Assembly: GCF_021028975.2 (NCBI RefSeq)
Contig: NC_059434.1
Location: 57,102,001-57,166,000, forward strand
DNA from: Sphaerodactylus townsendi
Lineage: Eukaryota
Direction: 5' to 3'
DNA: 64,000 nucleotides
The position numbers were made by a program, and so were the translations under genes. Shown in pieces: positions 1,916 to 64,000 of this stretch (within the stretch, counting starts at the first letter, position 1; every line of letters begins with the position of its first letter). The notes beneath the pieces were generated by a model. It was not told the DNA's origin. It ran no database searches and saw only the letters and a program-made list of their open reading frames with translations.

Positions 1916-4509
1916 CTGAATTCAGATACCCAATGGCTACCAGACTCTTGCTCTTTTCTAATAATATGTATCAGTTATCCTAGTGTCTTTACACTTGCTG
2001 GCCAGAACACTGGAAAACATTTTCTTGATATTTTTATTTCTTAATAAGATTCAATAATATTTTCTGTAGTGCTTTTTATTCGTTACCTTTAAAAATGAAA
2101 ACAGAAAAGGAGCTCAGAATACCCTTGAGAGGGCCTCTTTTGGCTATGCTTTGCAAACAACAAAAAAGAACTAGTGTCTGTCTACAATACTTGATTTTAT
2201 TTGAATAACAACTGTATGCAGAGATTAAAGCTAGTTTAAAGAAGGCTCATAAAGCTTTATTTTTCATAATAGAATGGATAAATTAGCTAAAGCATCACAG
2301 TGATTTAAACAGAGCCTGTTTCAGTATGACAGAAAATTAAACCCTTGGAAATATTCTGTTCTGCATTTAGGGGAGAGAATAAGCAGTATGGAATTGTGAT
2401 TTCTTCATTTTCCAAGCTGCAAGAAGCAATACATGGTTTCTTTCCCTGTTAAAGTTACTGAGGCATTGCAAATGTTTATGAGTGGGTAATAATGTTGCAG
2501 TGAATGGCTAATGTGTCTCACCTTTTTAAAAGTGTTTAATGACCTGCATACAGAGTCATGAGCCCAGATCAGTGATTTATACCTGTTTGTATAGCACAGC
2601 CATAGCCTAACGTGCAATAAATCAGTGTGAAGTGAAAGGCAGGTGGTTAGACTTGATCTGACTTGCTATACCGTTTTTGGCACCGGGACAGTAAAACAGA
2701 ATAGTCTTTGGGTAAACGAACACACACACACACACATTTGAAATATAGATATGATACAATGAATACTATTATAAATGTATTACTTTCCTGTGGATTCAGA
2801 ATTTAACCTTGCAAGGCAAGGATAGACTGAGAAGTTAAAACATCCCTGGAGAGAAAAGTATCGCAGCAATCTTCTTTAAGCTACACTGCACAACCCAACA
2901 TGGGGTGTCTAAAGCAGCTTATAGTGAGCTTCTACTCAGATTGCAGTCTTGCAGACTACAGTCTTGCATTCAGGATATTTGATGTGGGCGGGATTAAAGT
3001 TGGTCACATGGTAGCCCTTCCTTAATGAAGTCTTTTCTTAGGAGGCTGGCTTGGTGGTGTACAGGCTCTAAGCAGCAGCTCTGGTTCTAACTTACAATTG
3101 GCTTCTTGGCTTGCCATAGTGGTTGCTTCAGCTCATTCAAGAAGAAAAGGGAATTCATAAAATACTCAAGAGACAGTGGTATTATTTCAATCATGATGGA
3201 AGCAGATGCCTATCTTGTGAAGAGTAGGGGCTCCTCAGTCAGGATATGGACCGTCACCATGTGTCAGTGTGGATGTGGTGGCTGCTCTGCTCAGACTTAG
3301 AAACTTGTCAGAGGGGGAAGTACAGTAAAGCTACTGGATAGATTTTACATCTTCCAAGCAGGACACATACTTTCTGTTCAGAGGGCACTTGTACCCTTCC
3401 TCTGCATAAAACTGCAGCTGGAACTGCAAGTAATTAGTGTAAGCTCCCATCCAGGCTTGCTGCAGACGTGTTCAGCACTGCGGAGCAAGTTGAGCCAAAC
3501 TGAGTTAGGATCACTTCAAGATCTACTTTGGCCCCAAGCTATGATGATGACAACAAAGTGAATAGGCTTGCTGGGTGTCGGTACTCTCCAAGGCAGTGGC
3601 TCACTGGCCTCACTGGGAAATTGCCCAAATGTTCAATGGCCAGGCCAGTCAGAGAGAGAGTTAAAAAGAGCAAAAAAATTACATATGAAATGTGCAAGCC
3701 TTTTAAAAAAGTAATGTAGGGCTGTGGAACCATGGCTCAGATATATTAGAAATATTATCTTTGCTTAGTGTGCAGATGGTCCACATTACACCCTAGCATT
3801 TCCACTTTAGGGCCAGAGTGCACAATGTCTACATTGTAGATTAGTGTTTAATTGGTTTTAAAAGGCCAGTTCAGACATATTGTAAATACAAACAAACAAA
3901 TAATAGCAAGAAGTCGAAGTTAGGGCTATAATTGGAGAAAGATAGGTTTCAGCAGCAGCAGGCATCAGGATTGTTGCAGTTTGTGACTTCTTGTGCCAAT
4001 TTGACGATTAAATCATTTCATTTACTGGATAAGGGCCTCCATGGCCTCATGCTCTGCAGGAATTTTAACTCATTCTTTCCTGTATAACCTTTTCTCCAAA
4101 CTTCACATGCCCCCAAGGAAAAAAATTTCAAAGCATCCTCAACTTCTCTGGTGAGGGGTTTGTCATGGGTCATTTCAAATGACCTGGGATTATTATGCCA
4201 GTGAATAAAATGTCATAAATAATTCTGGAAAGGCTAATGCAAAAACTAATTGAAAGACCCAATCAGTATGGATTACAAAAAAACTGCAACTGTTTCTAAT
4301 ATAATATGGATGCTTCAATTTATGTTAGATTGCACACAACAAAATATAGACTCTGAAGTAATCTGACCTTTTTCTAGCATTATGCATGATAATACCATTC
4401 TTCAGAGGGACTTCTCCTGATTTAAAACCCAATTGCAATGGGAATTCCACTTGCCATTTATGATACAACCAGAACTGTTAAAAAAAATTATGCAAACTGA
4501 GAGTAGGTA

Positions 4510-37099: not shown

Positions 37100-38680
37100 A
37101 GGTATCTCCCCAAAAGTGCTTAGCAACTGTCACCCAATGTCCAGCATCCTATTTTTGGATAAGGTCCTGGAGTGGGTGGTGGCACACCTGGATGATGATT
37201 TTCTGGACCCATGTCAGTTGGGTTTCAGGCATGGCCATAGTACTGTCTTGGGAGAGAGAGACAGGGGCTGCATATCCCTGTTGGTTCTCCTTGATCTATT
37301 AGCAGCGTTTAATACTGTCAACCACAGTATCCTCCTGAACTGGCTGCGGGGGCTGGGAGTGGAAGGCACCATATTACGGTGGTTGTCTTCTATCTCAGTG
37401 GCAGGCTCCAGAAGGCAGGAGTGGAGGACAACTGCTTGGGAGCATGGGAGCTCAATTATGTGGTTCCCCAGGGCTCAGTGCTGTTCCCTATGTTGACCAA
37501 CATCCACTTGAAACCACTGAAAGAGTTCATAAGAGGGTTGGGGTGAGTTGTCACCAGTATGCTGATGACACGTAGCTTTAGTTCTTGGTTCCATCTGCAT
37601 CAGATGGGGAGTTGTCAGTTCTGGACCAATATCTGGAGGCTGTAATAGGCTGGATCAGGGCACATCAATTGAAATTGAATCCTGACAAGATGGAGGTGTT
37701 GTGTGTGCTGGGTCCAAGATCCAGGAGATCAAGGGGGCACTTGACACCAAATGGTGTGGTTTTATCCAAGGGTGCAGGACCTGAGGGTTATTCTTGATTC
37801 CTCATTGTCACTGGAATCCCATGTGGCAGTAATGGTGAGGAGGACCTACCAGGCTCTCCAGCTGGTTTGCCAGATCTGCCTTTACTTGGACTGGAGCGAT
37901 CTGAACACAGTCACTATGGAATGGTAACCTCATGGTTAATATATTTTAACATGCTCTGTGTGGGGTTGTCCTTGAAGATGGTCTGGGAGCTGCTGCAGAA
38001 TGCAGCAGTTCAACTGTTAGTGGATATTCCAGGACGTCATCACATAACACTTGTCTTGAGGGAACTGCACTGGCTCCCTATTCAAGGTACTGGTACTGAC
38101 CTACAAAGCCCTATGCAATCTGAAGGAATGCTTTCTGTCATATAGACCTGTCCAGGTGCTAAGGTCAGTCCGGGCCGGGGCGGGGGTCCTTGGAGCTCCA
38201 TTGCCTTCCTAGGTTCAGGGGATGAGGGTCACCCAGAGGGTCTTTTCTGCAGTGGCCCAGGCACTTTGAAATACTCTCCCCCCAGAGGTTTGCCAAGTGC
38301 CAACTCTGAAAGTTTAGGTGCCTGACCAAGACTCTATACCCGGACATATGGTAATCCCATCTGGGCAGTGCCCCTTTACACTCCTCCATTACACTCAACT
38401 ATACCAGCTCCCAATTAGTTCATTCCCAGTCCAATTTCTGAAATGTGTTGGGGGGAATTATGGGGGGTGGATGATTATATATATTTTAGAAGGGGGTTAG
38501 GTTAGGGGTGGGGATGGTTTTTAAAGGAGTTTTTTGATGGTTTTATGATTATTTTATGGCGTTTTTAGGATTGTACTCCACCCAGGGAATTTGCTGATGG
38601 GCAGGATATAAATGCAGAGTCAGTCAGTCAGTCAGTCAGTCAGTCAGTCAGTCAGTCAGTCAGTCAATAAATAAATAAAT
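37100..38680 (+). mobile_element. L2 LINE: decayed RT domain to 3' tail
   Basis: DPCQLGFRHGHST..LLVLLDLLAAFNTVNHSILL..PQGSVL..CHQYADDT..LKLNPDKME..LQNAA..HHITLVLRELHWLPI. Ends in (AGTC)n(AATA)n. Confidence 0.9.
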
Positions 38681-40212
38681 GCTGGCAAAAAACTACAAGC
38701 AAAGCTCACTTGAAAAAAAGTTTCTTGCACTGAAATCTTCTGCATGTGTATAGCTTGCTTTTGGCTTAGCAGAGGCTAATGAAAGGAGGGAAGAGAAAAT
38801 TTCCTAAATCTATGCTAAAATAAACTTTGACAAAAATGGGGCAACCAAAGTGTTATGAGAATTGCCTGGCAAAAATTCTCACCGCCCTAGGGTGTCATTT
38901 GTGGAGAAAACCCATTTTTTCCCTTCCAGAACTTCAAACTTGATTTCTGAAGGCATCAGAATTATTAGTTCCTGAGAGCTCTGTGTGAGAGTGTGTTAGC
39001 ATATTTGTGGCATAATACATTTTCTCAAATAGGGGTGTGCATTCAGCAAAGCTGAACTGGGAAAAAAACCCTCTAAGATACTTTATTCGTACTTTTCTGG
39101 GTTCTTTTCCTGAAAAAATGGTGAAAAATGCTGAAAAAACGTTTTCCTGAAAAAAGAAGCACATTCTTTAAAGGGCTGAACCCATGTTACCTGCTGACTG
39201 CCGCTGCCATTTTCAAAGTTCCTATGGGCTCAGAGGTGGGGGCAGCACAGAGCTGAATTCTGGGTCCATGTAGACTTCAGAGGGAGTAGCGCAGAGCTGA
39301 ACACAAAGCAAATATTCAGGTCTGTGCTGCTGCCTCCAAAGTTCACATGAGCTGAATGCTGGGTACTGCTTGCCACCTCCAAGTACTGTCTCTTAACCTC
39401 AGACATCAGAGGGGGACTTGACTAGCCACTCAGAGAGACAGAGGGGTCAAGTAACAGAGAATTATTTCCCTGTTGCTCTAACAATATCCCTTTGATGTGT
39501 AGATTGCTACTGTCAGGGAAACTTCCCTCCTTCCACCTTTCACACTCTCTTTCCACATCACTTCTTCACAAGGACGTAGGTAAGAGGGGGTTCTCGGGTT
39601 CAACTCCCCCATTACATGTCAGGCGCTCCCACACCCCCCGTTTGTTTGTTTTTTTTTTGTTTCCAGGCAGTGACTGGAAACCACAGATATAATCCAGGTT
39701 GCTTTTTTGTCTTTGCACGGAGACACTTCTTTTTTTAATTTCCAGAAACATGCCATACCAATTGTCCCATGATACGACTGCCTGCACTTGCTTAGCTACA
39801 CAGATGCAACCAGCAAAAAAAGAGAGAAGGAAATGGGGCCTCCCTGCAATGGCAGGGCAGGTTGATTCTTCCTGACTGTTGACAGCACTGTGGAAGAGAG
39901 GGGGGGGGGAAGCACCTCTTGCCTGGCTTTGCAGGAGCAGCTGCAACTCGGGATTTTTCAAAAGTTTAGCTGATTTAGCGATTTTTTAAAAACCCAGATT
40001 ATGGGAAATAAAATGGGGCAGGTTTGTTTTGGGGGTGGGACCTGGGTGAAATCCCCCCCCAAAAAAACAGGTTCCATAGTGCCCTGCACCTATGACTTTT
40101 GGCCAAGGACATAGGTAAGGGGGGGGGAGTTTCTCAGGTTCAACCCACCATTACATGTCTTGGGTGCTGTGTGGTTTCCGGGCTGTATGACCGTGTTCTA
40201 GCAGCATTCTCT

Positions 40213-40253
40213 CCTGACGTTTCGCCTGCATCTGTGGCTGGCATCTTCAGAGG
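40213..40253 (-). ncRNA. Minimal type I hammerhead ribozyme (Penelope-associated)
   Basis: Minus strand CCT-CTGAAGA-T-GCC(AGCCACAGATGCA)GGC-GAAAC-GTC-AGG gives stem I CCT/AGG, the CUGANGA and GAAA cores, and a GUC cleavage triplet. Confidence 0.85.
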
Positions 40254-40316
40254 ATCACACCAGCCACAGATGCAGGCGAAATACCAGCCACAGATGCCAG
40301 CCACAGATGCAGCCAC

Positions 40317-42754
40317 TAGGGTTGGAGATTCGGACAGTCCAAATCCGAATTTTTACCGAATCTGCACGGATTCGGACGGATTCGGATGAGCAGGAGCCGA
40401 ATCTGAGCTGTCCGAATCCTAACAGATCCGAATCCATGGGATTCGGATTACCAGCCGAATTGCGTTTTTATTTTTTGGTGTTTTTTTCACATTTTGGCCT
40501 GCAGGGGAGACATTTTTAAACATATCAGCACCAACTTTTCAGGATATCATCAGGAGACTGTCCTGATGATACCCTCCAAGTTTGGTGCATTTTGGTTTAG
40601 GGGGGGCAAAGTTATGGACCCCCAAATGTGGTGTCCCTATCCCCCATTCTTTCCAATGGGAACTAAGGAGATGAGGGCTACCCTTTTCAGGGTCCATAAC
40701 TTTGGCCCCCCTGAACCAAACTGCACCAAACTTGGAGGGTATCATCAGGACAGTCTCCTGATGATACACTGAAATATTGGTACCGATACATCTACAAATG
40801 CATTACCTGCAGGCACCCCCCAGAAATTTGCACAAGATTCTTTTGTTCTGCAGTGACTTTAGCTGCATTGCTGTCAATAGGGAATTTCTGAGGGGGCTGT
40901 GGAGTGCACTTTACCCATTTTCATGGTAAACCCACAAAACTTTCAGGAGTCTCTTTCAGGAGAGTCTCTGATGATGACACCATCGGGTTTGGGGAACTTT
41001 ACTTCAGGTGGAAGTGGGAGATGGGCCCTACCCCTTTGGGTCCCATAGAATTAAACCCCCTGAAGCAAAATTCCCAAACCTGGATGGTGATCATCCAGAG
41101 ACTCCTCCTGAAGATACCCTTGAACATTTTGTGACTATATCCTTGATACAAAAGTGAAATTCCCACATTGACAGAAATACAGCTAAGTCACTTGCAGAAC
41201 AAAGAATCTTGGAAGGCAGGTGCCTGCCGGGGACGCATTTTGAGATGTATCGGCACGCAAATTATCAGAGTATCATCAGGTGACTGTCCTGATGTTTGCG
41301 CCAACAAGTTTGGTGCAGTTTGGTTCAGGTGCATGGACCCTGCGAAAGTGCATCTATCCCCATTGTTGTTTCCAATGGGAGCTGATAGTGAGAGTCCATA
41401 ACTTTAGTTTCCCCTGAACCAAACTGCACCAAATCTCTTTCAGGGGTATCATCAGGACAGTCTGATGTTACCCCGCGAAAAGTTTGGTGTCACTTAGCTT
41501 TAAAAATGCTGGAGTTTGTGTGTTTTCACCGCTCCCTCACTCCAGGAGGCTTCTTGTGCAGGAGCGGTGAAACATGAAAAGCGCTGGAATTTTTAAGCCT
41601 ATGATGGCAACCAAATTTCAGGGTCCATCATCAGGAGACTGTCCTGATGACACCCCCAAGTTTGGTGCAGTTTGGTTCAGGGGCCAAAGTTATGGACCCT
41701 CAAAGGCCTCTATCCCCATTGTTTCCAATGACAGCTAAGGAGATGGTGGCTACCATTTTGAGGGTCCGCGCTTTGGCCCCCCTAAACCAAATCTGCACCA
41801 AGCGTGACAGTCTCCTGGTGACAATACCCTGATCATGTGCCCCTACGTTCTTTTTTTTCTGCAGTGACTTCTGACATTGCTGTCAATAGTGGAATTTTCT
41901 GGTGGGAAGGGCTGTGTGAATTGCACATTTATCAAGGTACAAAGTCATCAAAATGTTCAGGAATTATCTTCAGGAGAATGCTGACTGACACCACATCCAG
42001 GTTTGAGGAACTTTGCTTATGGGGGGGCAGTGGGAGATGGACCCTACCCATAACATTTGAACCCCTTGAAGCAACGGTCACCAAACCTGGATGGTGTCAT
42101 GAAGAGACTCTCCTGCAGAAGACACCCTGAAAGTTTTGTTGGGTTTACCATGAGAAATGCACTCCACAGCCCCCTCCCACAGAAATTTCCTATTAATGTA
42201 ATGGAGCCAGCCACAGCCACTACAGAGCACAGAATCTGGGAAATTTCTTTAGTGGTGACTGTGAGGGGTGCAGTTTTAGAGCTTACTGTCACCAAAATTT
42301 CCGGGTATCATAAAATGTAACTGTCCCTATGATACTCCCCAAGTTTGAGAGTGAAGTTTTCTGTCTCAGGGGTCCAAACGTTATGGACCTTCAAAAGTGT
42401 AGCCCCGCTCTCCTCAAAGTTAGCTTCCACCGTGGAAACAATGGGGGATGGTGTCAATAACTTTGCCCCCCCTGAATTAAAACTGCACCAAACTTAGGGA
42501 GAATCACTCAGATGATATCCTGAAATTTTGGGTGCCGCTGGCTTTACAAATTTCGTCCCCTGCAGGCCAACAACGTGTAAAAACACCCAAAATTCAAAAA
42601 TAATAATAAAACGGACCCGAATTTTTCGGATTTACCCGAATTTTCGGGTATATCCGAATTGGCTATGATTCGGATTCGGGCATACAAATCATTTTATGCC
42701 CCAAAATACCCAAATCCGAATTTTACCGAATTTTTTTAGTATTGACCAACCCTA
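40317..42754. mobile_element. Non-autonomous hAT DNA transposon (2.4 kb)
   Basis: TIR TAGGGTTGG / CCAACCCTA. Perfect 8-bp TSD GCAGCCAC at 40309-40316 and 42755-42762. Subterminal CCGAAT/ATTCGG arrays. No transposase ORF. Confidence 0.9.
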
Positions 42755-45700
42755 GCAGCCACAGATGCCAGCCACAGATGCCAGCCACAGATGCAGGTGA
42801 AACGTCAGGAGAGAATGCTGCTAGAACACGGCCATACAGCCCGGAAACCACACAGCACCCAAGTGATTCCGGCCGTGAAAGCCTTCGACAATACATTACA
42901 TGTCTATTTGTGTTTTTTTGTATTTTTAGTGTTTTTTTGTTTTTTGCCTGCAAGGAGGTGCAGTTTTTAGGCTAGCAGCACCAAAATTTCAGGGATTGTT
43001 TGGGAGACTCTCCTGATGATACCACCCAGGTTTGGTGAGGTTTGGTTCAGGGGGTCAAAAGTTATGGACTCCCAAAAGGGGTGCCACCATCCCCCATTGT
43101 TTCCAATAGAAGGGCACTTATATGATGGATACTAAATCCATTGTAAAAGAAGTAGATTTTTTGTGAAAATATTCAGCTTCAAAATCCCTTAATGACTTAT
43201 CAGAAATGTTTTAATAAGATTTGTACTGTTATATATATAACAGTACAAATCTAATTGTACTATTGTACAATTGTACAATTCTAATTGTACAAAAATCTAG
43301 CTAGCATTTTACCTTAACATTTTATTTGTGAGCCAGGGAAAATAAGTTAAGTTTCATAATAAATCAAATATATTTTGAAATCTTTCGACCCCAAATAGAA
43401 GACAATTTAGCTGATAACATTTCCTCTTGATTTCTACAAATGTATCACCAGCTTTTTCATCATTTTAACTTGTGGTAAAAGCTTAATGGAGCAATAAGTG
43501 AATGGTCTTATATCTTCAAACACTATTTAGTTCATAGCAAAATATATATGAAATATAAAATGATGACTTCATTTACTAAAATCAGCAAATGTTAAAATTT
43601 CAAGGTATATAAGAGGATAAAAGAGATACAATTTTTTATTTGATTCCAAGACAATTTGGTGAGAAGAAAAATCTGAATAATGCTCAGGAAGAGAAGGGAG
43701 TATCCCCCAAGCAAATTTCTGGGGAGAAAGCCTACACAGTCAATAAATAGGTGATAATTAACAGAAATGCAACTGACTAGAAAAAGCAGGAGGTCATAAG
43801 AAAAGCAAGTCACAAACTAGTAAAATTTAACTAGGAACAGCATTGGTTAATTTTTTATTAACCCTGATTAGGTTAGAATAGACTCTGAGAGATAGCAAAG
43901 TACCTCTTTCCTTTAAATTCTCTACTTTTTCTATGTTTGAGAACAATTTGATGACAGCAGGAATTTAACTGATGGCCAATGTATTTGTGATGATATGAGA
44001 CAGAATTATCAGTAAGCAATTTTATGAGCTGTTGCATTTGGTATTCAGAATTCTGGACTAGAGCCAGGGACTTTGGTTCAGATCCCAAATGAACCTTGAA
44101 GATCACAGAATGAACTTGTGAATTTAAAACTGACCTTCTTGAAAGATAGCCATACTAAACACTTAACGTGTATAGGTCATGCTAGATGTTTCAGTAACTC
44201 TATGGAAAAGAAAATGAGTCTGAACTGACAGCTCATTTTCAGTCTACCCTCCATAAAACTGTTGGTTTGTATGAAGAATCTCTTGTATTAATCTGTGAAG
44301 CTATATAGACAATTAAAATGAGCATGAAAGATAGGAAGCTATGGGTGGTATATCCACATTCCAATCCTGGATGCCTGTTCTGTGGGGATTATTTCTTAAA
44401 GCATCTATGGCCTTGTACCCTTCTGGAATCCCTCTCCACCTCAGGCTCTATCTCTAAATCTCTATAAGTTTCCCAAACTGGATCTGGCAACAATACCTTT
44501 CCACCCTGCACCAGTTGCTGCAGCCTTTTAAAAAGATCCAAGCGGTTGCTTTTATGCGTGTCAGGGAAGGCATGTTTGCAAAACATGTCCATGGCTTAGG
44601 CTCAGCATAATTCTGTGAGATTTCATACGAAGCAGATGGCATACAGTTTGGCTCTTTCCATTCTATTTTGCCAGCCATTGTGTCAGCTGGAGGTTAGCAG
44701 GAAGTTGCTTGAGCTTTGCAAATGTGAGGAGGATAAAGGTTCTCCAGGAACTGGAGGGAAGCTCAGCAAAGAACCATACTGAAATATGCTCCAATTAATT
44801 GTCTTCTCGGGAGAAAGTATGGTTAAATGGAGGAAGGAACAATACTACAGTTATTTTCTTTTCTGTCCCAACTGCAGGTGGTGGCAAAGTGGGATATAAA
44901 TATCTAAACAAATAAGATGTGAACGGTCTATAAGTTAAATATTTACCCAGTGTTTGCTGCTCATCTTTGTTCACCAGGGCAGCTCTCTAGCCAGTATAAT
45001 CAGTGTTGGTCTTCAAAGTTAGTGGAGCTGTGCTGCTAATATGGGCCAGGTGTGAGTATGAACCAGTCTTTCAGGCTATAGACTGTGGACACCACATCTT
45101 CTGTTGGCATGCACGATTTGGCTGTCATGCACCTGAAGGCATCCAGTTTATGCACACATTTCTTGCATGTTCCACAGCCTCATTGTTTTGAAAAGGCAGT
45201 CCCTTAATAGGTTATAGACCATAGTTTTGATATGCTAAGTGCAATGTGTTCTTTGCAGAACAAAATTCTTTTCATTGGAGCATGAAGTGAACATTGGAAA
45301 CAACCTCTGTCATTTCCATGTTTATGAAATAAAACAAAGGGGAAACATGCTGTTTTCTTGTTACTATTGGGATCTGTTCGCTTTTGGTTTGATTCATCTT
45401 TCAGCATGAGAATTCAACATTGTTTTCAGTTTGTGTTTCCCAAACCATATTAATGAAGTGCTAAAAATAAAAATGTAGGTTTGTTTTGTTTCAGAAGCAT
45501 CAAGGCTTTTTTCTTTTTTATTTGAGTGATTTAGCATATTGGTCTGGAAGGGCTATAATCAAATAGAAAGTCTGCTTGAAAAATACATAGCCCTTGATTT
45601 TCTGAAACTCTCCCTTCCTCCTTGTAGCTATTTATATATGAGAAAACTAATGCTGAGGGATTAGCATGCAACAAATTAATGAAGCTACAGCTCATGCTTA

Positions 45701-62000: not shown

Positions 62001-63220
62001 CTTCACTGTAAGGCATTTTCTTGTCTGACATCTTCATCTGAAGGTATCTATGAGCGAGGAAAAAGCTGAACCATTTATGTGACAGAGTTGGAGGGGATGA
62101 AAGCTTCCTTATCAAACAACTGAACAAGCCTCAGGCAAATTTGTGCCCCTGTAGTGCCAATAAGGAACAGATCTTTGATTTGTAAAATTCAGGTGTGAAG
62201 AAATGGCACAGTTTGAGGAAAGCTTTGCAGTTCACTGTCCAGGTTGAAACTTTACTTGAAACAATTATGTTATGCGACTTTCTATAAGAATATTCATCTG
62301 ACATAACCACAAGCCTTTGAAGTCTATATTCAAGGTCACATTTTATTTTATCCAGAAGACAGACTAGCTCTGTGGTGTTTTGTAATTATCACTCCATTGT
62401 TGTTGTATAACACAGAGTGTGTATTTGAAATTGTATTCTATTACTTTATCTTTTTGCTACTGAAAGCACAATGGTGCATATTGTTTGAGTTTCATAAACG
62501 TGAATATACAATCATAACACGTTTTCGTGATGGATATATTACAGGTGAGCCTATATTTAGTGTGAATATCCAGGGTCAGCAAGGGGGCTATTGTCAATGG
62601 GAAACACCAAGCCAGTGCAATTCCTGACAGCAGAGGATACAGGGGAGCATAATAATAACCTATTCATTAACATCTTTCAGGCACTCCGCCATTGTAAGGT
62701 CTCTCTATAGGTTTGGGCTGTCTCAGGGGGCTTCTAGGCAATCTCTCACTCCCAACATGGCAAACAGCAGGGATCTTGTTTCATCGTACAGTTCTTAGAT
62801 TTACATGTGACACTCTGGAGTGTACTATTTTTTGCAAAGCTGTAATGCAGGGAGAGGGAAAAGAAAATGAGGCATACTGGGGAACTATGAATATCCTGGA
62901 TATCCTACAACTATATAATCTGCAGAAATGACTGAGTGTTGAGTTATATTTGTACTTACAGGAGCTCTTCACAGACATTGCTTGAGCTATAAGGAAGCTA
63001 CATTTTCACTAGCAACTCCTGCCTGGCTGCATGTATGACAGGTCTGGTCATGTAAGTCTTTCAACAGAAATGTCAACTAGGGATGTGCATCACCAAATAT
63101 GAATCTGGAATTTTATTTTAAAAATTTAGAACTCTCCCAAATTCCAAAATTTAACATTACATTGAATTCAAGAGGAAATAACCCTTTCCCACTAAAAAGA
63201 AAGCAGATCACTTTTCAAAG

Positions 63221-63395
63221 CATTGTTGAAGGCTTTCTCGACCAGAATAATTGGGGTGTTGTGTGGTTTCTGGGCTGTCTGGCCATGCTCTAGTAGCATT
63301 TTCTCCTGACGTTTCGCCCGCATCTGTGGCTGGCATCTTCAGAGGATCTGATGGTAGTAAAGCAAGTAGTAAAGCAAGTAGTAAAGCAAGTAAAG
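63221..63395 (-). mobile_element. Short Penelope pLTR insertion
   Basis: Reverse complement is closely similar to 42790-42893. Imperfect flanking repeat CTTTTCAAAG / CTTTCCAAAG. Confidence 0.85.
63305..63345 (-). ncRNA. Minimal type I hammerhead ribozyme (Penelope-associated)
   Basis: Minus strand CCT-CTGAAGA-T-GCC(AGCCACAGATGCG)GGC-GAAAC-GTC-AGG; all core nucleotides intact. Confidence 0.85.
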
Positions 63396-64000
63396 TGCTT
63401 TCCAAAGGTTTTCCTTGGGTCATTAACCCTTTCCAGTATCTGTGCCAGCACAAAGAGCTAGCTAAGCAGCACTGGTGTTCCTGCCTAGGGACATGGGGTA
63501 CCCCTTGTCCCTGGGCGCATCAATTGAGGTCACGTGGGGGGCGCCAAAACATCCTCCTACACAGCCAGGGATTGAGCAATCCCTAGAAAGCAGGCACTGA
63601 AGCAGCCGACTGGTCCCAGTGCCTGTCGTAGCCCCGCCCACTCTGTACGGTGGCCTGGAGTGTCCAGGGGGTGGGGGAGAAGTCCCACTGGGCTCCCAGG
63701 AGCAGGACTGGGGAGCTCCGCCTCCCCTCCCTCTAACCCAGCATGCCTTATTCGCCTTAAATGAAGTGGAGCATTTCTCAGAAGCCTCCTCCTCGGCGGC
63801 AGGCACAGAAAAAGGCAAGCTGAGCAGGGAGCCCAGAAGCAGCAGGAGAACTGAAGATTATGCTGATGTTTTGCCGGTAAACCTTCAGATGGGGCACTTG
63901 CAGAGATTTACATGCTTAAAAAGTTAATTCCCACTTGCACTGGCTTGGAGCTCTTTCTGAGGCTAACAACCTACCTCATCGGGATGGCGTGAGGACACAA

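What the first reader, a model, noticed from the sequence alone, without database searches (positions are those of the whole stretch)
40260..42793. Reiterated 13-mer at a Penelope 5' junction: possible telomerase-like repeat addition
Seen: with the hAT removed, the plus-strand pLTR lacks the CTGAAGA core and instead begins with about six units of (C)CAGCCACAGATG, one extended by CAGGCGAAA. In the intact ribozyme this unit is bracketed by the direct repeat AGATGC, much like a template with an alignment region. Established: Penelope RTs are the closest retroelement relatives of telomerase RT. Inference: the RT stalled at ribozyme stem II and repeatedly realigned, leaving a genomic record of repeat addition.
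Basis: partly seen in the sequence, partly recalled or inferred. Interest (0 to 1): 0.7.

Follow-up and report, generated by a model that had tools for sequence, protein, structure and literature searches.

The report
Stuttered join of a Penelope insertion
A Penelope retrotransposon copy carries five extra copies of a 12-13-letter stretch where its two inverted halves meet; similar stutters occur at about one in six sampled joins of this family and were likely made by repeated DNA-templated re-priming while the insertion was being sealed, rather than by telomerase-like repeat addition on RNA.

Summary
Six units (five extra, one native) sit at the head-to-head junction of two pLTR arms of one Poseidon-type Penelope insertion (12-bp TSD), later split by a 2.4-kb hAT-like element. 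The feature recurs: 130 exact two-unit matches genome-wide against 31,202 arm matches; 72 of 89 examined begin at the junction, and 0 of 51 inverted partner arms share it. So it is not consensus, and mostly not later slippage. The telomerase-like reading is weak: the 13-mer is one register of many (130 of 501), only 11 of 124 re-starts use 4 or more nt of alignment, the reciprocal deletion is common (88), a third perfect unit is rare (3 of 89), stutters also occur outside the ribozyme, and some repeats recopy the locus's own junction or target DNA, which the element's RNA cannot template. Best reading: iterative microhomology-primed DNA synthesis while two target-primed cDNA ends are joined (polymerase-theta-like; enzyme unknown). 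RT re-priming on RNA is not excluded: long partial tandems seem to need it, and no test assigns the template at this locus. Two look-ups of earlier scan notes found nothing relevant.

The parts
40149..40160 (+). left copy of the 12-bp target-site duplication of the Penelope insertion
   Evidence: identical to 42894-42905
40159..40258 (-). inverted pLTR arm, element coordinates +91 to -6 (0 = C of CUGAAGA); starts at the short RT initiation site, holds the intact minimal hammerhead core, followed by 3 non-element letters ACA
40260..40316 (+). reiterated units 1-3 and first half of unit 4 (segments +9..+30, TA, +9..+22, +4..+24, +10..)
40317..42754 (.). hAT-like non-autonomous DNA element, 2,438 nt, 9-bp TIR, 8-bp TSD GCAGCCAC, inserted into unit 4 after the array formed; no stop-to-stop frame over 121 aa
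   Evidence: the hAT label rests on the 8-bp TSD and TAG..CTA ends (recalled rule), no transposase seen
42755..42780 (+). second hAT TSD copy, rest of unit 4 and unit 5
42781..42893 (+). direct pLTR arm with native unit, hammerhead 3' half, ORF start region and the 30-40-nt tail (to about +124)
   Evidence: matches the 5' part of the 819-aa RT ORF in L416
42894..42905 (+). right copy of the 12-bp target-site duplication
63214..63397 (-). second, non-inverted pLTR copy in the window with a 12-mer repeated 3.2 times at its 5' end (element -31..-11), upstream of the ribozyme: an internal control

Best explanation
The array sits at the join of two inverted Penelope arms and is likely a scar of end joining: the free 3' end of one target-primed cDNA would have primed on the other cDNA through 0-6 nt of microhomology, been extended 10-40 nt, come off and re-primed several times before the join held. 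Shown: the architecture (one TSD, two head-to-head arms), its recurrence, and that some reiterations in this family copy DNA that is not in the element's RNA. Taken from a paper: the Anolis Poseidon protein cleaves and extends both target strands and starts at two internal RNA sites (PMC11167929). Inferred: both strands were primed here, one at each site; cDNAs mostly run off the RNA 5' end near -6 and sometimes end near +4; the top strand then stutters on the bottom cDNA, and AGATGC is simply the best local microhomology. The enzyme (host polymerase theta, or the Penelope RT in DNA-dependent mode) is not identified.
For: Architecture: 53 of 77 unbiased inverted junctions pair one tail arm with one short arm, 1 of 77 is tail-tail; the two arms share the subfamily letter at +41 in 105 of 107 insertions, 6 of 8 for the minor letter. 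Reiteration is generic: 13 of 77 unbiased junctions; 501 and 628 genome-wide matches for two 12-mers repeated within 40 nt; 81 for a 12-mer 60 nt downstream, 18 of 25 distinct loci viewed lying at their own 5' junction by eye. DNA template: 21 matches switch orientation minus-plus-minus; where a re-start begins at the same place as the first segment, 7 of 16 loci recopy 4 or more junction letters (6 of 14 with a permutation pool vs 2.3 expected, p=0.0014; 5 are clearly locus-specific by eye); L367, L208 and L210 repeat their own target-site DNA with the 5' end (picked by eye); L308 holds 22 nt of its own neighbourhood. Short, mixed tracts: 11 of 124 re-starts have 4 or more nt overlap, 52 have inserted letters. 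First units start at +6..+10 more often than simple arms do (55:17 vs 9:12, p=0.006), as expected if they mark weak priming sites. Reiterated priming with inserts mostly under 25 bp from one flank is the described polymerase-theta signature (PMC5068794, passages). At this locus units 1 and 2 both start at +9 behind the same non-reference A, as in L067: weak support for one DNA template.
Against: No test assigns the template for the 13-mer class or for this locus: with perfect microhomology, leftward RT realignment on RNA and rightward synthesis on cDNA give the same sequence. The variant-tracing test had almost no power (1 informative CpG site). 9 of 16 informative loci show no junction recopy. 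8 of 30 ORF-bearing copies leave the ORF at +162..+506 and restart at about -7..-14, which seems to need re-priming on RNA, so this RT probably can jump. The 13-mer duplication favours the tail arm (44 vs 16, p=0.0004), which this model explains only partly (tail arms end at +2 or later in 17 of 46 vs 10 of 46), and other registers show no such bias (23 vs 29). Simple arms do show a second cluster of ends at +2..+9, next to the base of helix II. Only 1 of 16 long junction inserts clearly came from outer flanking DNA.
Confidence: 0.6

Rival explanations
1. The Penelope RT stalls near +4 (base of helix II) or runs off the RNA 5' end, releases the cDNA 3' end, re-anneals further 3' on the same RNA (AGATGC or AUG) and copies again: telomerase-like realignment or template jumping.
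For: Junction clustering and formation at insertion time; a cluster of arm ends at +2..+9; partial tandems reaching beyond both initiation sites (8 of 30); recurrent extra letters AT before GATCC at re-starts; L345 with three 14-mer units and arrays of up to about nine 74-nt units; tail-arm bias. R2 proteins make longer products by template jumping (PMC11371274, passages); Penelope and telomerase RTs are sister groups (PMC8557442, passages).
Against: No fixed register (130 of 501), deletions at the same repeat (88, against 11 of 89 duplications with the core intact), 86 of 89 stop at two perfect units; further re-starts after a first (18 of 82) are about as likely as a first (11-13 of 77); no peak at the ribozyme cut site (1 of 124 at +34); junction- and flank-spanning repeats cannot come from the RNA; in the long arrays the units carry a +58 variant missing from the terminal arm (L430, L440, L444), pointing to copying of an older array; the main text of PMC11167929 describes a dominant insertion band and has no 'ladder' or 'switch' (gels and supplements not seen).
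Confidence: 0.25
2. The repeats arose after insertion, by replication slippage or repair at the near-perfect palindrome, or by minisatellite expansion.
For: Some higher-order copies share CpG decay (L001/L070) or show graded variants (L343); palindromes are fragile (recalled); deletion loci tend to be older (arm divergence 0.077 vs 0.058, p=0.08).
Against: 45 of 89 loci lack the upstream AGATGC needed for slippage, yet the same structure recurs (L016, L082, L120, L121); duplicated loci are not older (0.048 vs 0.058, p=0.82); stutters also occur at non-inverted 5' ends; here unit 1 keeps a CpG that the main arm has lost.
Confidence: 0.1
3. The array was copied from a source transcript or subfamily that already carried it.
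For: Likely true for the long 74-104-nt arrays, which recur with one junction at neighbouring loci; L341 and L342 have units on both arms.
Against: 0 of 51 partner arms carry the 13-mer duplication although partner arms share subfamily letters.
Confidence: 0.03

Closest known systems
Penelope/Poseidon PLE insertions with inverted 5'-truncated pLTR and tail (PMC8557442, PMC3846280, passages; PMC11167929, main text)
   Same: pLTR with minimal hammerhead, ORF starting at helix II with the cut site 26 nt after the start codon, 30-40-nt tail on one arm, head-to-head inverted arm, short TSD, palindromes at the junction.
   Different: The passages read explain the inversion by self-priming or leave it open; none describes reiterated junction segments or counts one arm per initiation site.
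Polymerase-theta-mediated end joining with templated inserts (PMC5068794, passages)
   Same: Priming by about one base pair, aborted extension, re-priming, overlapping inserts from one flank, lengths mostly under 25-40 nt.
   Different: Here the two ends would be retrotransposon cDNAs that are each other's copy; the enzyme is untested, and group II intron-type RTs can do such joining themselves (10.1101/2022.03.14.484287, abstract only).
L1 twin priming and R2 5'-junction snap-back/join (PMC11702581, PMC11371274, passages)
   Same: Both target ends extended by RT, inversion junction resolved by microhomology, DNA-templated extension of the cDNA end before joining.
   Different: L1 inverted parts differ by 1-10-bp deletions or duplications; here the arms overlap by about 90 nt and reiteration is seen in 13 of 77 junctions.
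Telomerase repeat addition processivity and DRT2 concatemeric cDNA (PMC12039810, passages)
   Same: A unit bracketed by a short direct repeat, tandem copies at the cDNA 3' end, related RT (telomerase).
   Different: No fixed boundary or register, jumps in both directions, no raised chance of further repeats, part of the repeats DNA-templated.
Non-LTR retrozymes (10.64898/2026.07.22.740005, abstract, introduction, part of methods, passages)
   Same: The longer re-start units (74-104 nt) in this genome are tandem hammerhead-bearing arrays derived from the pLTR.
   Different: The 13-mer holds no ribozyme; the passages read give no mechanism for how arrays are born.

Membership tests
Penelope/Poseidon PLE | single ORF with RT domain | tested here: met
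   L416 holds an 819-aa ORF starting with the same 5' sequence; Pfam RVT_1 E=1.1e-12. The window copy itself has only the first 40 codons.
Penelope/Poseidon PLE | C-terminal GIY-YIG endonuclease with two Cys between the motifs | tested here: inconclusive
   No Pfam hit at E<=0.001; the ORF shows GVY-RIPCSC-GQVYIG by eye, the layout described in PMC8557442.
Penelope/Poseidon PLE | pLTR, optional tail, inverted 5' arm, TSD | tested here: met
Minimal type I hammerhead ribozyme | CUGAnGA and GAAAC-GUC core with helices I and II | tested here: met
   Motifs read directly, layout as in PMC4209133 and PMC11167929. Rfam gave no hammerhead match and the fold is not unusual (z=-0.47), so this rests on motif and spacing.
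Minimal type I hammerhead ribozyme | self-cleavage | not testable with these tools
   shown for the Anolis relative only (PMC11167929)
Telomerase-type repeat addition | fixed template boundary and register | tested here: not met
   130 of 501 stem II reiterations use the 13-nt register; segment ends spread mainly from +3 to +58
Telomerase-type repeat addition | alignment region used at each cycle | tested here: not met
   11 of 124 re-starts overlap by 4 or more nt; 3 of 5 re-starts at this locus do
Telomerase-type repeat addition | processive cycling | tested here: not met
   3 of 89 reach three perfect units; 18 of 82 have a further re-start vs 11-13 of 77 a first one
Telomerase-type repeat addition | RNA is the template of every unit | tested here: inconclusive
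   not met for junction- and flank-spanning repeats; undecidable for plain 13-mers
Theta-mediated end joining scar | short templated inserts from DNA next to the join, 0-3-nt priming, reiteration | tested here: met
Theta-mediated end joining scar | dependence on POLQ | not testable with these tools
   needs genetics
hAT DNA transposon | short TIR and 8-bp TSD | tested here: met
   (rule recalled)
hAT DNA transposon | transposase or an autonomous partner | not tested
   no frame over 121 aa; no partner searched

The most novel reading that the evidence does not exclude
Poseidon RT re-primes on its own RNA after running off the 5' end or stalling, adding a few untemplated letters and jumping back. 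One activity would then make the short stutters, the partial tandems that give Penelope its promoter, and the hammerhead-bearing arrays that become retrozymes: a surviving, imprecise precursor of telomerase repeat addition, with about a thousand genomic records and an existing in vitro system to test it.
Probability: 0.22. Interest if true: 0.75.

Novelty: new variant of a known kind. Interest (0 to 1): 0.38.

Why it matters
How Penelope elements finish an insertion is open: the in vitro paper leaves it to steps 'yet to be validated'. This genome holds thousands of junctions that point to priming from both target strands, one at each of the two known start sites, followed by error-prone joining. 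That would explain the long-known inverted arm and one-sided tail without an antisense template, and it makes clear predictions for a purified system. The telomerase link is the least supported part. If RT re-priming on RNA does contribute, it would bear on the origin of repeat addition and of retrozymes.

Tried and rejected
Rfam scan of 39,500-43,500: no hammerhead family, only hairpin-driven microRNA matches far below cut-off. Reads of four runs laid on the locus: swamped by paralogous copies, no allele with or without the array could be read; one contig of a second organism matches up to 40160 and then leaves the stretch, a weak hint of an empty site, not used. Variant tracing between first segment, main arm and inverted arm: 1 informative site in 1,229. 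Jumps to the ribozyme-cleaved 3' end: no peak at +34 (the samples were chosen by patterns that force ends at +8 or +21 and beyond). The first junction-recopy count (18 of 39) counted both orientations and loci chosen for switching; (9 of 18) held array-internal pairs and two loci whose upstream letters probably belong to a subfamily missing from my references; one search dropped L378, L341, L379, L195 and L206 and is the figure used. PDB sequence search: only distant RTs. Not done: comparison with other LINEs' 5' ends; a denominator for the downstream control 12-mer; 30 unlisted and 4 listed matches were not fetched. The segment parser is my own, uses 8 references built from stored loci, misses segments under about 8 nt (7 of 89 known duplications not called) and can inflate overlaps. 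Literature: 7 full-text searches found no paper describing reiteration at Penelope junctions; the library lacks most subscription papers and no supplements were read. Two look-ups of earlier scan notes gave nothing relevant.
Full report
Coordinates. Element positions count from the C of the hammerhead core CUGAAGA (0): start codon +6, AGATGC copies at +4..+9 and +17..+22, predicted cut after +34, RT start sites near +90 and +124.

1. Observation. Confirmed. One insertion lies inside a 12-bp TSD: an inverted arm (+91 to -6), three non-element letters, five extra segments, and a direct arm to the tail. A 2,438-nt element with 9-bp TIR and 8-bp TSD splits unit 4, so it is younger than the array. 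Segments read +9..+30, TA, +9..+22, +4..+24, +10..+22, +4..+22, +4..+125: mixed registers.

2. Family. A copy elsewhere (L416) starts at -4 and carries an intact 819-aa ORF with an RT domain. The ORF starts at helix II with the predicted cut 26 nt after the start codon, as in Anolis Poseidon (PMC11167929; I read its abstract, main text and the start of the methods). That paper shows cleavage and extension of both target strands and two internal start sites that bracket the tail. In this genome 53 of 77 unbiased inverted junctions pair one tail arm with one short arm, and the arms share subfamily letters (105 of 107). Most arms end near -6 (78 of 128 simple arm ends at -3 or upstream, mode -6), about 30 nt after a TATATATA run. 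I infer priming from both strands and run-off at the RNA 5' end; the start site is untested. A second cluster of ends lies at +2..+9.

3. Recurrence. Genome-wide exact matches: 31,202 arms, 5,390 inverted junctions within 60 nt, 130 two-unit 13-mers, 211 when the first unit may be shorter. I examined 89 distinct loci covering 93 of the 130 matches. 71 have an inverted arm. 72 first units start at +4..+10, against 21 of 120 simple arm ends (p=9e-21). In 51 loci the inverted arm spans the same stretch and never carries the duplication. 45 keep at most 3 nt of the first AGATGC, and duplicated loci are not older than simple ones. The duplications therefore formed locus by locus, most likely during insertion.

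4. Not specific to stem II, register or direction. The same 12-mer repeated at any spacing up to 40 nt gives 501 matches, the core 12-mer 628, a 12-mer 60 nt downstream 81, mostly at those copies' own 5' junctions (18 of 25 by eye). The second copy in this window has a 12-mer repeated 3.2 times at its 5' end, upstream of the ribozyme. The reciprocal 13-nt deletion has 88 matches. Of 124 distinct re-start junctions 11 overlap by 4 or more nt, 52 hold inserted letters, 1 ends at the cut site. 13 of 77 unbiased junctions are reiterated; a further round follows in 18 of 82. Five rounds, as here, is the tail of that distribution.

5. Template. DNA-only evidence: 21 minus-plus-minus matches; recopying of locus-specific junction letters in 7 of 16 informative loci of 80 (6 of 14 vs 2.3 by permutation, p=0.0014, five loci dropped as listed under Tried and rejected); repeats that include target-site DNA in L367, L208, L210; a 22-nt local insert in L308 (1 clear case of 16). 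RNA-side evidence: 8 of 30 ORF-bearing copies (of 136 matches) leave the ORF at +162..+506 and restart near -8; extra AT recurs before GATCC; the 13-mer favours the tail arm 44:16. Long arrays of 74-104-nt units exist (108 matches), with their own TSDs where seen, but in L430, L440 and L444 the units share a variant absent from the terminal arm, so they look copied from older arrays. For plain 13-mers, and for this locus, sequence cannot decide.

6. Mechanism. Likely: both nicked strands are extended on RNA; the two cDNA 3' ends must be joined; one primes on the other, often through 0-3 nt; extension aborts after 10-40 nt, perhaps helped by fold-back of the new strand on its own arm (inferred); the new end re-primes where homology is best, often AGATGC; the cycle repeats with a chance near one in five. 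This matches reiterated priming by polymerase theta (PMC5068794, passages) and cDNA snap-back before R2 junction formation (PMC11371274, passages). The RT could be the enzyme (10.1101/2022.03.14.484287, abstract). Confidence 0.6; RT realignment on RNA 0.25; later slippage 0.1.

7. Known and new. Inverted arms, tails, partial tandems and junction palindromes are known (PMC8557442, PMC3846280, PMC2377424, passages; hammerheads: PMC4209133, results and discussion). PMC11702581 (passages) covers L1 twin priming; PMC12039810 (passages) defines repeat addition; PMC2718515 (passages) added nothing specific; the retrozyme preprint was read in part. Seven searches found no description of reiterated Penelope junctions or of one arm per start site; supplements were not seen. 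It works like a theta-type junction scar, fails three tested features of telomerase-type repeat addition, and is a new variant of a known kind. Interest 0.38; 0.75 if RT re-priming on RNA proves to be the source.

Noticed in passing
L213 and L275 (inverted junctions): Telomeric (TTAGGG)n letters at the junction, 19 nt and 8 nt, 2 of 219 junctions; host telomerase may extend free cDNA ends.
   Followed up: partly
L422, L426, L430 (C1 167.8-172.5 Mb); L440, L444 (C3 168.0-168.5 Mb); L438; further rows: Head-to-tail arrays of 74-104-nt units holding the whole hammerhead, with the same unit end at neighbouring loci: retrozyme-like lineages that may hop locally.
   Followed up: partly
L416:699-3158: Intact 819-aa Poseidon-type ORF; about 200 nt of near-identical flank on both sides (400-600 and 3330-3530), far longer than the usual TSD.
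   Followed up: partly
L407, L408: Two loci share the same internal junction (ORF +174 to about -43): possibly a non-autonomous deletion subfamily.
   Followed up: no
window 63214-63397 (-): Solo pLTR copy with a 12-mer stutter at its 5' end, outside the ribozyme.
   Followed up: yes
window 42897-43107 and 40465-40657: A diverged fragment of the same hAT-like family lies just right of the Penelope insertion (73% over 193 nt).
   Followed up: no
window about 37100-38680: Looks like an old LINE remnant ending in (AGTC)n(AATA)n; label by eye only.
   Followed up: no
L023:3-539 and 1889-2614: Two open frames next to a Penelope insertion resemble a Harbinger-type nuclease gene (recalled resemblance, not searched).
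   Followed up: no
subfamily B arms (for example L021, L060, L126): A second subfamily lacks the GATC palindrome and often ends near -37 or -11, suggesting a different transcript start.
   Followed up: partly
L453, L455: The same complex junction at two places on C1 (14.9 and 16.5 Mb), probably a segmental duplication.
   Followed up: no
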